Positions 24,001 to 27,000 of a stretch of DNA of 64,000 nt are shown here, piece by piece. Made by a program: the position numbers. Numbering within the stretch: the stretch's first letter is position 1; the number at the start of each line of letters is the position of its first letter. The stretch lies in NCBI RefSeq assembly GCF_048403405.1, contig NZ_CP183129.1; one strand, given 5' to 3'. The stretch is from Escherichia coli (GTDB lineage Bacteria > Pseudomonadota > Gammaproteobacteria > Enterobacterales > Enterobacteriaceae).

Positions 24001-27000
24001 GAACGTCCTGCTGAACATTCTTGCATCTCAACTCAGGCTCTCTGTCGTGCAGGAAGGAAAAACCACCTATGTCCTGCTTTCCGAAATAAACAATATCACG
24101 CTGCCTGAACTGAATGCGTGCTACAGCCAGAAACTGATAAGATGGCATGAGCAATCCTTTGGCTTATAATGTTCCCTGTTGCTGAGACGGATTATTCAGT
24201 GGTGGTATCGCAGTATGCCCGTCACCCCCGCTTCTGCATGAGGGTGACGGAGGAAAAGTAAGTGTGCGGAGGCCCGGGAGCGTTATGAATCAACAGGCGT
24301 ATAACAGGTACTCGTCAATCATCAGTTCCAGCTCGCGCTTTTCCCGTTTGCGCGCCACAGCCCAGTTTTCAAGCTCTGCATGTGATTTATGCTTTAACTC
24401 TTCAGTCCAGGGCTGCATGGAGTGGGCACACATCAGATCATACCAGCACAGCCATATCAGCGTGTGGTAGAGATCACGATCGTCGAAACGCCGGAGCAGG
24501 CTGTTCAGCCTGTTTGCCAGCCGGTTTTCACCCAGACGATGTAGCTCACTGAGTAAAACGCCGCCCAGATTAAAATGTGTAAGCAGCATGATTTCATGGG
24601 TCTGAATGCTGGTCATTAACCCTTCCTGAATGGCAGGAATGAACGGTGGTGTTCCCGGGTTGACGACCTGATAGAGTCCCTGTGGTGCCACTGAGATGAT
24701 GGTGCCTTTTTCTGGCAGAAAAAAGTGGGCCAGGGTCAGGCGGTGATAACCATGAAGATGCGGAGCCCCCATTCCATGAGCGACGATAAGCCTCGTCACG
24801 TTTGTCATCCATTTCTGATGCTGGATGAGCAGCAGCTCACACCGGTTTTCAAGTTTTTGCATAATATTCTCTCCTTTAGCGCGCAGCAAAATGCCTCCGG
24901 GGGCCGGATCATGCCTTTGCTGCGGTTGAACGGATAACGGTCAGGAATTACGGACGGGACTGTGCAATACGCGCCTGCAGCCAGGCTTCCACTTCACTTT
25001 TCAGCCATCGGGAACTGCGGCCCAGCTTGATGGGGGCCGGAAAGGCCCCATCCCTGATGAGTTTGTAAAACCACTTATCGGTCAGGCCAGTCAGTTGAGT
25101 GATAAACGCCATGTCGACCATCTGGTCATCCATCAGTGAAACTGGGGTGGTCATGAGAATGTTCCTCCGGATGTTGTTAATCTCAACCGGCGTTGGTGAT
25201 GAAAACAACGCACCACCTTCACCGGCATAACAACCGGGGAGAAACGTAAAAAATAATCGGGAATGTGACCGTCAGGAGATAAACGGGGGGATTGCGGTGG
25301 CTGAGCCGTACCGGTATGTCGGGTGGTTGTTGCGAAACGATGCTTCCGCACGCGATAAAGGAGGGAGGACTTTCGTGAGACAAGGGGAAAACTAGCGTTC
25401 TGATAATTGCAGAGTTGTTTTTGAAGGCGGTTGTGGTATATCAGCCTGTGACCTGTGGGCAGGCGACAGTTATCACTGGTGGGATAAGACTGTCTGATTG
25501 GTATTATAAATATATAAGAGAGATCAAACACATGAGTTCATATATGTGAAATAAATCTGTGAGTGTGATCAGCAGACCAGTCTACCCAGTAGCAACAGAT
25601 TGCGTTGTACTCACAGGGTTATCCCTGATAACTGGCGTATAACCTGCGTACATAAAACGTACCTGCAATGCACCTGAACAGAGTGCATTAAGCATCCGCC
25701 TGAGCGGTAAACGTATCCGATCTGGTGAGTGACAGTCTGAGAGCATTCTCAGTAATCGCCCCCTTGTATCCTGGAAATTGGTTAAGAGCGATTAGATTTG
25801 GCAAGGTGTATGCATCCAGCAGCTTAACACCTCAGCTAACTGGCTGGTTACCTTCAGGTTGTCGCAATGGCATCGGACATCCGGTGTCGGATAACTAAAC
25901 GTAGCGTTAAGGCGATATTGCTGAGAGACCGGTTAAGTGGTGGCACGGGAGTAATGAGTTTGGGGAGGGTACCAGAATGCCAGTCAGGTGCGGTATGCTG
26001 GCAGTATCACGTTGATTGCAGCATAAAGTAACGAGAGACGAATGGAAGTTAAAACCAGAGCAGTTCCGTCGTTGTTCATCCCGGGAGACGCTGGAAAAAG
26101 TGATTACCCGCACACGTTATAAACTTACCCCTGCGGAGCTGGAAGCCTTTAACTCTGCGGTCGATCACCGGCTGGCAGAACTGACAATGAACAAACTTTA
26201 CGATCGCGTGCCGGCTTCCGTCTGGAAATATGTCACCTGAATCTTGAATCCGCGCTACGATGACTCTGGTGTTATCTGTGCACCGGAAGATCGGGAACAT
26301 TAAGCAGTATAACGGCAACAAAGAATTCGAAATCAAAAGGGAATGGTGTACAGAGGGGCAGGCGTTCAGGCATTACCGGCCTGTATCTTCTGAAGGGGAC
26401 TCGTATTTGTCGGGGCTGAGTATTCCGCTCGATTCGATCACGGATTGGCAGAAACCTGACTGTGATTGATTCAGGTACCATTTTGCAGGGATCCGGTGCG
26501 TTACTGTCTGGCACAACAAACGCAGCGGGTCGCTCTGCCCCGCCGACTCCTGATAATCCCTCCCCTGTAACCTACTGCAACAGTACAAATACACTGACGC
26601 CTGAAACGGTAACCAGAATCAGCACCAGCAGTAACGTCAGTAAACAGAGCAGACGATCGGTCTTCCGGTAATAACCGAAGGGGTCGACAGCACCACAATA
26701 CGGGCAACATACTGTATTATGAGTAATTGCGTTACCACAGTCCCTGCACTTCTTTTTGCGTATCACGATCGCTCCCTCTCCACGCCTTATCCGTAACCTG
26801 TTTTTTACATTAAAAAAACAACGCCGGGAATTCAATCGTCAGTCCGGCGATGACCGTTCGGGTTATCACAGAGTGCCTGAGACAGTGTCCTGCCGGAGGT
26901 CACCTCAGGGGCTCTGCGCATTTTTTACGACGTGGTTATTCCGTATGAACCATACGGAGATTTAACCATGACCTACAAATACAACCCCTTCTGGCAGCAA

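What the first reader, a model, noticed from the sequence alone, without database searches (positions are those of the whole stretch)
25155..26015. 860-bp region with no ORF upstream of alpA
A long stretch free of plausible genes lies immediately upstream of alpA and before the small plus-strand genes. It is a candidate location for a regulatory RNA, an origin or an attachment-site remnant, but I cannot support a specific element from sequence alone.
Basis: inference. Interest (0 to 1): 0.3.

Follow-up and report, generated by a model that had tools for sequence, protein, structure and literature searches.

The report
Control region between alpA and hha
The 861-base gene-free stretch is the conserved, never-annotated control region shared by two back-to-back regulator genes (alpA-like and hha-like) of a very common E. 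coli genomic island; it probably holds their promoters and a long untranslated leader that ends in a hairpin masking the alpA ribosome-binding site.

Summary
25155-26015 lies between an AlpA-family gene (24948-25154, minus) and an Hha-family gene (26016-26240, plus). It has no conserved ORF, no Pfam match in six frames and no Rfam match. RefSeq annotates almost nothing there among 3,588 matching E. coli records.

It is not junk. The gap recurs in 3,584 of 5,426 complete E. coli genomes, up to 6 copies each, always in the same gene module. Two parts are far more conserved than synonymous sites of the flanking genes:
- An 85-nt hairpin pairs the alpA Shine-Dalgarno with an upstream anti-SD (-37 kcal/mol, z -3.6).
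- A 40-bp AT-rich core carries the symmetric -10 sequence TATTATA (TATAAT towards alpA, TGnTATTAT towards hha).

The predicted alpA leader between them keeps its length (333-353 nt) and is C-rich and G-poor, like a Rho loading site. alpA orthologues in seven other genera have unrelated leaders that also sequester the SD.

I found no support for an origin, an att remnant, a P4-like region or a free-standing sRNA.

Best reading: a divergent promoter region plus long cis-regulatory leaders. No transcript ends were available, so promoter position and mechanism are inferred. Modest interest; an undescribed example of a known kind.

The parts
24948..25154 (-). AlpA-family excisionase/regulator gene (68 aa). 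It is the first of a run of minus-strand island genes.
   Evidence: RefSeq annotation in the identical genome. Pfam PF05930 E 7.8e-9. PHROG 'excisionase and transcriptional regulator' E 4.5e-10.
25161..25245 (-). Hairpin of about 85 nt in the alpA leader. The anti-SD GUUUCUCC (25238-25245) pairs with the SD GGAGGAAC (25161-25168), enclosing three nested stems.
   Evidence: MFE equals centroid at -37.2 kcal/mol, z -3.64, 0 of 200 shuffles as stable. Predicted in 18 of 19 sequence variants. Diversity pi 0.042 against 0.165 at alpA third codon positions. 28 pairs: no compensatory double changes, several wobble-preserving single changes. Analogous SD-sequestering hairpins of different sequence occur in alpA orthologues of other genera.
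25245..25253 (-). UUUUUUACG motif immediately 5' of the hairpin.
   Evidence: The same motif lies 71-99 nt upstream of the AUG in alpA genes with otherwise unrelated leaders: Dickeya, Kosakonia, another E. coli island and CFT073 c1169. Its function is unknown; a ribosome standby or Hfq/S1 site is an inference.
25254..25495 (-). C-rich, G-poor untranslated body of the predicted alpA leader (rut-like).
   Evidence: The C/G ratio is 1.8-3.1 in 78-nt windows, at or above the 95th percentile of the 64-kb window. In 51 distinct copies C is 35-39% and G is 16-21%, and leader length is held at 333-353 nt despite many indels. No conserved ORF. No promoter-like site closer to alpA.
25481..25520 (.). Most conserved block of the gap. 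It contains TGgTATTATA (25499-25508): plus-strand extended -10 TATTAT (predicted start about 25514) overlapping minus-strand TATAAT (predicted start about 25496).
   Evidence: pi 0.026, the lowest of all segments. The core TTGGTATTATAAATAT is identical in 105 of 114 copies. All island families share sequence up to this point and diverge to its right. The geometry matches published bidirectional promoters, with -11A/-7T reciprocally paired and starts 18 bp apart (PMC10268837). A PWM scan scores it best in the gap on the plus strand and second-best on the minus strand (the minus-strand top hit lies inside the alpA hairpin), but not above shuffles.
25498..25570 (.). AT-rich centre (76% AT over 25498-25560) with a 14-nt GATC-containing unit GAGATCAAACACAT (25520-25533). 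The unit is tandemly repeated up to 3.5 times in other copies.
   Evidence: AT content is at the 99th percentile of the window. Tandem Repeats Finder gives 3.5 copies in L003. The shorter core GATCAAAYAY occurs 0, 1 or 2 times among 114 copies.
25571..25743 (+). Middle part of the predicted hha leader. Moderately conserved, with no supported element.
   Evidence: pi 0.096. Fold z-score for 25510-26040 is only -1.27. It is replaced by barely alignable sequence in the second island family.
25744..25927 (+). Optional 184-nt segment flanked by CTGAGAG direct repeats. It is absent from many copies.
   Evidence: Alignment. Present at full length in 833 genomes, usually once per genome, so it is not a mobile repeat.
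25928..26015 (+). G-rich hha-proximal leader with a 12-codon uORF (25977-26015). The uORF has an SD GGAGG 8 nt upstream, and its stop abuts the annotated hha TTG.
   Evidence: G 35-42% and C 13-15%. The uORF is intact in 86% of 42 copies but its peptide is variable.
26016..26240 (+). Hha-family gene of the hha2/hha3 class. This allele is N-terminally altered by a 14-nt deletion after 26060.
   Evidence: Pfam PF05321 E 7.6e-27. The ancestral start MEVKTKEDWLYQFRRC is kept in only about 11 of 137 copies. E. coli 042 hha2 is the intact form in the same module.

Best explanation
The stretch is the shared non-coding control region of a divergent gene pair in the backbone of CP4-44/PAI-type E. coli islands. 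To the left lie alpA (excisionase/regulator) and downstream island genes. To the right lies an hha paralogue followed by Gp2-like and zinc-ribbon genes.

Proposed mechanism:
1. RNA polymerase starts in both directions at the invariant AT-rich core around 25499-25508, whose -10 hexamers overlap on the two strands. This is inferred from sequence only.
2. The AT-rich centre is a likely seat of H-NS/Hha silencing. Silencing is published for the island genes as a group, not for this site.
3. The leftward transcript carries a roughly 340-nt untranslated, C-rich, G-poor leader that would expose it to Rho-dependent premature termination (inferred).
4. That transcript ends in a very stable hairpin pairing the alpA Shine-Dalgarno with an anti-SD, so AlpA translation is masked by default. 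The structure prediction and the conservation are shown; the effect on translation is inferred.
5. The rightward transcript carries a 320-500-nt leader with a short uORF before hha. Here and in most copies hha itself is decaying.

Net effect: AlpA, and with it island excision or activation, is held off at three levels until some signal relieves them.
For: - Same module and a 700-1100-nt gap in all copies fetched. It is found in 3,584 of 5,426 genomes, median 2 and up to 6 copies per genome.
- Constraint is uneven. pi is 0.042 for the hairpin and 0.026 for the AT core, against 0.165 and 0.132 at third codon positions of alpA and hha in the same sequences.
- Hairpin stability: -37.2 kcal/mol, z -3.64. 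It is predicted in 18 of 19 variants, including a family whose 3' arm differs at several positions and by two 1-nt deletions yet still pairs with the unchanged 5' arm.
- alpA orthologues in Klebsiella, Citrobacter, Salmonella, Enterobacter, Cronobacter, Dickeya and Kosakonia have non-homologous upstream regions. All of them sequester the SD, often the AUG too, with z from -2.4 to -3.8.
- Leader length and C-rich composition are conserved over 51 variants.
- The core sequence is identical in 105 of 114 copies and has the geometry of bidirectional promoters.
- There is no promoter-like site nearer to alpA.
- hha2 of strain 042 sits behind a homologous 698-nt gap. qRT-PCR puts its level only slightly below core hha (PMC4864382).
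- Island 'region 2' genes are derepressed in hns and hha mutants (PMC6480617).
Against: - No transcript ends, RNA-seq or ChIP data for this locus were available, so promoter position and leader length are unproven.
- Promoter PWM scores are no better than in shuffled sequence, and the consensus scan finds none in the gap.
- The hairpin shows no compensatory double substitutions within E. coli. The cross-genus hairpins are analogous, not alignable.
- Whole-leader fold energies are unremarkable, z -1.1 to -1.3.
- The right half tolerates a 184-nt deletion and wholesale replacement in another island family, and hha is mostly degenerate. Much of the right half may therefore be under little constraint.
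Confidence: 0.6

Rival explanations
1. Mostly neutral spacer. The gap is debris left by rearrangement and gene decay in a young, recombining island. Its apparent conservation reflects recent common ancestry, and only a short standard promoter and RBS next to each gene matter.
For: - Large indels and replacement are tolerated on the hha side.
- hha itself is decaying, and IS insertions and truncations are frequent.
- In other genera alpA has only an ~85-nt spacer, so the long E. coli gap is lineage-specific.
- There is no covariation, and leader segments 25401-25480 have near-neutral diversity, pi 0.129.
Against: - Diversity is 4-6 times lower in the hairpin and the AT core than at synonymous sites of the flanking genes in the same sequences.
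- Leader length is held within 20 nt and composition within 4% over 51 variants despite many indels.
- No promoter-like sequence exists near alpA.
Confidence: 0.2
2. The gap encodes an independent trans-acting small or long non-coding RNA, or an unannotated small protein.
For: - A long conserved gene-free region in an island whose Ag43-proximal gap does carry known sRNAs: IS102 RNA and isrC elsewhere in the window.
- A 12-codon uORF with a good SD is kept in 86% of copies.
Against: - No Rfam match even at E<=1.
- No intrinsic terminator on either strand inside the gap.
- Fold z-scores of long segments are not significant.
- No ORF of 25 aa or more is conserved, and the uORF peptide sequence varies freely.
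- No Pfam hit in six frames.
Confidence: 0.12
3. The gap is a replication or transfer origin, or an attachment-site remnant. It would be served by the neighbouring helicase-like YfjI and Gp2-like proteins or by the island integrase.
For: - An AT-rich centre (76% AT) is flanked by inverted repeats 25464-25493 and 25613-25637.
- A 14-nt unit is tandemly repeated up to 3.5 times in some copies.
- The adjacent genes resemble a DNA helicase (PHROG 2373, E 3e-81) and an inovirus Gp2-type protein.
Against: - Only one repeat unit in this window, and none in 59 of 114 copies.
- The right inverted-repeat arm is missing in the second island family.
- One DnaA-like box against 1.3 expected.
- No tRNA gene in the window and no tRNA-3'-end-like sequence in the gap.
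- No similarity to any phage or satellite record.
Confidence: 0.04

Closest known systems
Bidirectional sigma-70 promoters with overlapping -10 elements (Warman et al. 2021; Salmonella plasmid study PMC10268837)
   Same: A 7-bp TATTATA gives a -10 hexamer on each strand, with -11A and -7T reciprocally paired. The predicted starts are 18 bp apart, it sits in AT-rich horizontally acquired DNA, and it drives a divergent gene pair.
   Different: No start sites have been mapped here. -35 elements are poor on both strands. The -18T rule is met for only one direction.
RBS-sequestering leader hairpins (translational operators; ribosome standby model of de Smit and van Duin, e.g. tisB)
   Same: The SD is fully paired with an upstream anti-SD in a stable stem, with a single-stranded U-rich stretch immediately 5' of it. 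This arrangement is conserved across orthologues even where the sequence is not.
   Different: No ligand, sRNA, temperature or processing trigger has been identified. At -37 kcal/mol the stem is much more stable than RNA thermometers. There is no experimental test.
Rho-dependent attenuation in long 5' leaders (e.g. Salmonella mgtA/corA leaders, E. coli rho and rpoS leaders) and Rho/H-NS silencing of foreign DNA (Cardinale et al. 2008; Peters et al. 2012)
   Same: About 240-280 nt of untranslated, C-rich, G-poor RNA ahead of the gene, in a horizontally acquired island whose genes are H-NS/Hha-repressed.
   Different: Only composition was tested. No termination site, pause hairpin or bicyclomycin data are available.
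hha2/hha3 loci of enteroaggregative E. coli 042 (Prieto et al. 2016, PMC4864382; PMC6480617)
   Same: The same module. hha2 of 042 sits behind a 698-nt gap that is 85-90% identical to this one, next to the same alpA-like gene and Ag43 cluster.
   Different: Those papers treat the genes only and do not describe the intergenic region. The window's hha allele carries a 14-nt deletion that removes the authentic N-terminus.
CFT073 alpA (c1169), directly repressed by Fur (PMC7157518)
   Same: An AlpA-family gene in a PAI with a regulated upstream region. It shares the TTTTTTACG motif upstream of the start.
   Different: Its upstream DNA is unrelated (no BLAST match) and has a clear Fur box (14 of 19). 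The window's gap has none above chance (12 of 19; 51% of shuffles do as well).

Membership tests
Any curated RNA family (Rfam 15) | Covariance-model match at or near the gathering score | tested here: not met
   0 matches with E<=1 in 24000-27500. The orthologous alpA leaders in 8 loci also gave no relevant hit.
Free-standing bacterial sRNA | Own promoter plus an intrinsic terminator bounding a short transcript | tested here: not met
   No terminator-like site inside 25155-26015 on either strand.
SD-sequestering translational leader hairpin | The Shine-Dalgarno is base-paired in the most stable fold, and the fold is more stable than composition predicts | tested here: met
   GGAGGAAC is paired with GUUUCUCC. 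-37.2 kcal/mol, z -3.64, 0 of 200 shuffles as stable.
SD-sequestering translational leader hairpin | The structure is conserved in relatives, ideally with compensatory changes | tested here: inconclusive
   Within E. coli, 28 pairs show 0 double compensatory changes and a few wobble-preserving single changes. Orthologues in 7 genera have different sequences that also sequester the SD, z -2.4 to -3.8, but they are not alignable.
SD-sequestering translational leader hairpin | Opening the stem raises translation | not testable with these tools
   Needs reporter fusions or toeprinting.
Bidirectional sigma-70 promoter (Warman type) | -10 hexamers on opposite strands overlap so that -11A and -7T are reciprocally paired | tested here: met
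   Plus TATTAT at 25502-25507 and minus TATAAT at 25508-25503, read directly from the sequence. Rule taken from PMC10268837.
Bidirectional sigma-70 promoter (Warman type) | A mapped divergent start-site pair 7-25 bp (typically 18 bp) apart | not testable with these tools
   No 5'-end data. The 18-bp spacing is a prediction from the hexamer positions only. PWM scores are not above shuffles.
Rho-dependent leader attenuator | An untranslated C>G tract of at least about 80 nt (rut-like) | tested here: met
   C/G ratio of 1.8-3.1 over about 280 nt. No conserved ORF. Composition is conserved in 51 variants.
Rho-dependent leader attenuator | Rho-dependent 3' ends or bicyclomycin-sensitive read-through | not testable with these tools
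   Needs Term-seq or bicyclomycin RNA-seq.
Iteron-type or DnaA-dependent replication origin | Several iterons and/or DnaA boxes next to an AT-rich unwinding element | tested here: not met
   One 14-nt unit in this window, and 0 in 59 of 114 copies. One DnaA-like box against 1.3 expected.
Island attachment-site remnant | A tRNA 3'-end fragment or a repeat of the island end | tested here: not met
   No tRNA in the 64-kb window. No T-arm or tRNA-Phe-3'-like sequence in the gap.
P4-like satellite regulatory region | Sequence similarity to P4-family control regions | tested here: not met
   blastn with word size 11 against 50,697 phage records gave no match.
Fur-repressed alpA promoter (as CFT073 c1169) | A Fur box upstream of alpA | tested here: not met
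   Best match is 12 of 19, equalled in 51% of shuffles. The positive control c1169 scores 14 of 19.
Dam/OxyR-type phase-variation switch (as agn43) | Clustered, conserved GATC sites inside a regulator binding site | tested here: not met
   3 GATC against 3.4 expected. The GATC repeat is absent from 59 of 114 copies.

The most novel reading that the evidence does not exclude
The alpA leader is a dedicated riboregulatory gate with three parts: a U-rich standby motif (UUUUUUACG), an SD-sequestering hairpin and a Rho-sensitive C-rich spacer. It would set the threshold for production of the island's excisionase/activator. The hairpin-plus-motif unit, conserved by architecture rather than sequence in alpA genes across Enterobacterales, would be an undescribed cis-regulatory RNA class controlling the mobility of a very common island family.
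Probability: 0.25. Interest if true: 0.55.

Novelty: new member of a known kind. Interest (0 to 1): 0.33.

Why it matters
This island backbone (Ag43, YeeP-like GTPase, CbtA/CbeA toxin-antitoxin, YfjI, AlpA, Hha2/3) sits in about two thirds of complete E. coli genomes, often in several copies. It carries adhesins and regulators linked to virulence.

How its excision and expression are switched is not known. The gap examined here is the most likely seat of that switch, and no annotation names it.

Knowing that AlpA synthesis is probably gated by a masked ribosome-binding site behind a long Rho-prone leader, fired from a shared AT-rich core, turns a vague 'silenced by H-NS' picture into specific, cheap experiments.

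It also flags that many annotated island 'hha' genes, including this one, are N-terminally damaged alleles.

Tried and rejected
- **Decayed tomB-like or other gene in the gap:** six-frame Pfam search empty; ORF-intactness test negative.
- **Known RNA family:** none.
- **Conserved structure over the whole leaders:** z-scores are -1.1 to -1.3 for three of the four long folds and +0.46 for the fourth. RNAalifold keeps essentially only the SD hairpin on the minus strand, with no useful covariation.
- **Structured RNA on the hha side:** there are only three sequence types, poorly alignable between island families.
- **GATAA motif enrichment:** 8 observed against 1.9 in shuffles. This was post hoc, and it is not significant against window k-mer frequencies after multiple testing. 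Dropped.
- **Dam-site switch:** GATC count is ordinary and the sites are not conserved.
- **Fur control by analogy with CFT073 alpA c1169:** different locus, no Fur box here.
- **5' hairpin or operator palindrome at 25464-25493:** pairing is not maintained in other variants (inspection).
- **184-nt segment as a mobile mini-element:** single copy per genome.
- **Homologues outside E. coli by an exact 18-mer:** only one short, low-coverage contig and chance hits. 'Plasmid' hits are mostly misfiled chromosome.
- **Translational coupling of alpA to the 126-aa ORF through ATGA:** the overlap is not conserved.
- **Literature:** no paper describing this intergenic region was found.
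Full report
**What is there**

The window is 100% identical to E. 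coli M16807 (NZ_CP031256) over the finding. RefSeq annotates a 68-aa helix-turn-helix regulator on the minus strand ending at window 25154, and 'hha' on the plus strand from 26016. Nothing is annotated between them. Pfam confirms the flanks (Phage_AlpA E 7.8e-9; HHA E 7.6e-27) and finds nothing in the six-frame translation of the gap, even at E<=10. PHROGs files the left gene under 'excisionase and transcriptional regulator'.

The wider context is the CP4-44/PAI-type island backbone. On the minus strand, downstream of alpA, lie a 190-aa unknown protein, a YeeP-like GTPase, Ag43, IrmA, antirestriction, RadC, CbeA/CbtA and others. On the plus strand beyond hha lie an inovirus-Gp2-like protein and zinc-ribbon proteins.

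**Is it really gene-free?**

A mechanical ORF list contains a 126-aa ORF (25151..25531, minus) and several of 54-57 aa. I collected about 120 homologous copies from complete genomes and metagenomes and asked whether each ORF survives. The 126-aa ORF is intact in 19% of 42 distinct sequences, and nothing of 25 aa or more exceeds 69%. Only a 12-codon uORF at 25977-26015 reaches 86%, and its peptide varies. Indels that are not multiples of three are common. The observation therefore stands.

The right border is soft. The ancestral Hha start (ATG at 26042, MEVKTKEDWLYQFRRC...) is out of frame here because of a 14-nt deletion after 26060, and the annotated TTG start is simply the first start codon in the Hha-domain frame. 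Only about 11 of 137 copies keep the intact 70-aa gene.

**Distribution**

Megablast finds the gap in 3,584 of 5,426 complete E. coli genomes: 7,152 places, median 2 and up to 6 per genome, almost all chromosomal. Nearly every match has nothing annotated under it. Every copy examined has the same module and a gap of 700-1100 nt. The alpA-proximal roughly 360 nt is shared by all island families. To the right of about 25520 the families diverge.

Elsewhere I found little:
- No match among 50,697 phage records.
- Only misfiled chromosome fragments and short pieces among plasmids.
- With an exact 18-mer, nothing in species representatives other than one short, low-coverage contig.
- No tRNA gene in the window.

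**Where selection acts**

Diversity was measured across 42 distinct sequences spanning both genes.

| Segment | Coordinates | pi |
|---|---|---|
| alpA, third codon positions | | 0.165 |
| hha, third codon positions | | 0.132 |
| alpA, first and second positions | | 0.074 |
| hha, first and second positions | | 0.035 |
| alpA-proximal segment | 25155-25245 | 0.042 |
| AT-rich block | 25481-25520 | 0.026 |
| Rest of the gap | | 0.073-0.129 |

Two sub-elements are thus as constrained as protein-coding positions, while the remainder is only mildly constrained.

**Element 1: a hairpin that masks the alpA ribosome-binding site**

On the alpA strand, 25245-25161 folds into one long hairpin. GUUUCUCC pairs with the Shine-Dalgarno GGAGGAAC, and three further stems nest inside. 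The MFE equals the centroid at -37.2 kcal/mol, z is -3.64, and 0 of 200 shuffles are as stable. It is predicted in 18 of 19 sequence variants.

Within E. coli there are no double compensatory changes. There are only wobble-preserving single changes, plus a family whose 3' arm is altered at several positions and by two 1-nt deletions yet still pairs with the unchanged 5' arm.

The stronger comparative evidence comes from orthologues at 75-77% nucleotide identity in Klebsiella, Citrobacter, Salmonella, Enterobacter, Cronobacter, Dickeya and Kosakonia. There alpA follows a YagK/YfjJ (Gp2-like) gene after only about 85 nt, with no hha and no long gap. The upstream sequences are not homologous to the window. 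Yet each folds so that the SD, and often the AUG, is paired with an upstream complement, in four distinct sequence solutions, with z from -2.4 to -3.8. None matches an Rfam family.

A short motif, UUUUUUAC(G/A), sits just 5' of the hairpin in the window and in several of these unrelated leaders, including CFT073 c1169. I cannot say what it does. A ribosome standby site or a protein-binding site is a guess.

**Element 2: the AT-rich core**

25498-25560 is 76% AT, at the 99th percentile of the window. Within the invariant block, TGGTATTATA (25499-25508) reads TGnTATTAT on the plus strand and TATAAT on the minus strand. The two hexamers are offset by one base, so that -11A and -7T of each are paired with one another. 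The predicted starts (about 25514 and about 25496) are 18 bp apart.

That is the most common geometry of bacterial bidirectional promoters (PMC10268837, citing Warman et al. 2021). The 16-mer around it is identical in 105 of 114 copies.

Caution is needed. The simple consensus scan finds no promoter in the gap. My weight-matrix scan ranks this site best in the gap on the plus strand and second on the minus strand, where the top hit falls inside the alpA hairpin and predicts a start downstream of the start codon. Neither score exceeds shuffled sequence, and the -35 regions are poor. No alternative promoter-like site lies closer to alpA.

**Element 3: the leader between them**

If alpA is transcribed from the core, its leader is about 340 nt. 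Over 51 distinct variants this distance stays within 333-353 nt despite many indels. The body is 35-39% C and 16-21% G. The C/G ratio is 1.8-3.1 in 78-nt windows, at or above the 95th percentile of the window.

A long, untranslated, C-rich, G-poor RNA is what Rho needs to load (established knowledge on rut sites and on Rho silencing of foreign DNA). Whether Rho acts here is untested.

**The hha side**

The 500 nt to the right are less convincing as a functional unit:
- A 14-nt GATC-containing unit that is tandemly repeated up to 3.5 times in other copies; its shorter core occurs 0, 1 or 2 times.
- An optional 184-nt segment flanked by CTGAGAG repeats. It is single-copy in 833 genomes, so it is not a mobile element.
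- A G-rich proximal part with the 12-codon uORF.

Fold energies are ordinary. One island family has replaced most of this side.

There is indirect evidence of transcription. In strain 042, hha2 (NC_017626 4,848,505-4,848,717; intact 70 aa) lies behind a 698-nt version of this gap that is 85-90% identical. qRT-PCR found hha2 mRNA only slightly below core hha, and hha3 much lower (PMC4864382). Because the upstream neighbour is divergent, the hha2 promoter most parsimoniously lies in the gap. The same group reported that genes of this duplicated island region rise in hns and hha mutants (PMC6480617).

**Rivals**

- *Neutral spacer.* This remains possible for much of the right half. It does not explain the two strongly constrained blocks or the fixed leader length.
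- *Free-standing sRNA or small protein.* No terminator, no family match and no conserved ORF support it.
- *Origin or att remnant.* Sequence tests contradict it.
- *Fur control.* Suggested by the published Fur-repressed alpA of CFT073, this applies to an unrelated upstream region; the window has no Fur box above chance.

**Verdict**

This is a real, widespread, unannotated regulatory intergenic region. Its best-supported component is a cis-acting leader hairpin that masks the alpA ribosome-binding site. The promoter core and Rho-prone leader are reasonable inferences awaiting transcript mapping. It is an undescribed example of known kinds of control, of modest interest.

Noticed in passing
window 26016-26240 (and 26042-26060): The annotated 'hha' uses a TTG start with no SD. 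Compared with intact copies (MEVKTKEDWLYQFRRC...), this allele has a 14-nt deletion after 26060 that puts the ancestral ATG (26042) out of frame. Only about 11 of 137 copies retrieved keep the intact 70-aa gene, so many island 'hha' annotations may be damaged alleles.
   Followed up: yes
window 21348-22678: A second, even longer unannotated gap (1,331 nt, GC 0.32-0.41) lies between the YeeP-like GTPase gene (minus) and the YfjI gene (plus) in the same module.
   Followed up: no
window 20166-20371 (-) and 59115-59237 (-): Rfam gathering-score matches to IS102 RNA (RF00124, 259.7 bits), between the GTPase and agn43, and to isrC (RF01387, 97.4 bits) far to the right. The second hit may mark a second CP4-44-like Ag43-proximal region in the window.
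   Followed up: no
window 25245-25253 (-); L146, L149, L150 about 92-93 nt and L153 (CFT073 c1169) 71 nt upstream of the alpA AUG: The motif TTTTTTAC(G/A) recurs 71-99 nt upstream of alpA-family start codons whose leaders are otherwise unrelated. In the window and in L146 it lies just 5' of the SD-sequestering hairpin. The Klebsiella/Citrobacter type has AAAAATTACG at the same place.
   Followed up: partly
L140-L150 (Klebsiella, Citrobacter, Salmonella, Enterobacter, Cronobacter, Dickeya, Kosakonia): In most of these genera the order is Gp2-like (YagK/YfjJ) gene, alpA, then zinc-ribbon genes, all on one strand with an ~85-nt spacer and no hha (Kosakonia L149 is ordered differently). The E. coli arrangement (alpA inverted, hha and a long gap inserted) looks like a lineage-specific rearrangement.
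   Followed up: partly
L011 about 2580-2600 (equivalent to window about 25320): A G/C homopolymer tract in the alpA leader varies in length between copies: 14 G in L011 against 3 in the window. This is a possible slipped-strand hotspot.
   Followed up: no
window 24290-24862 (-): The 190-aa gene immediately downstream of alpA, conserved in all E. coli copies of the module, has no Pfam or PHROG match. It is unrelated to the gene that neighbours alpA in other genera.
   Followed up: partly
L003 (NZ_CM151362) 2420-2500: In one genome the gap is joined at exactly the alpA start codon to a JAB-domain gene fragment of the toxin-antitoxin end of the island. This is an internal island rearrangement that removes alpA but keeps the gap.
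   Followed up: no
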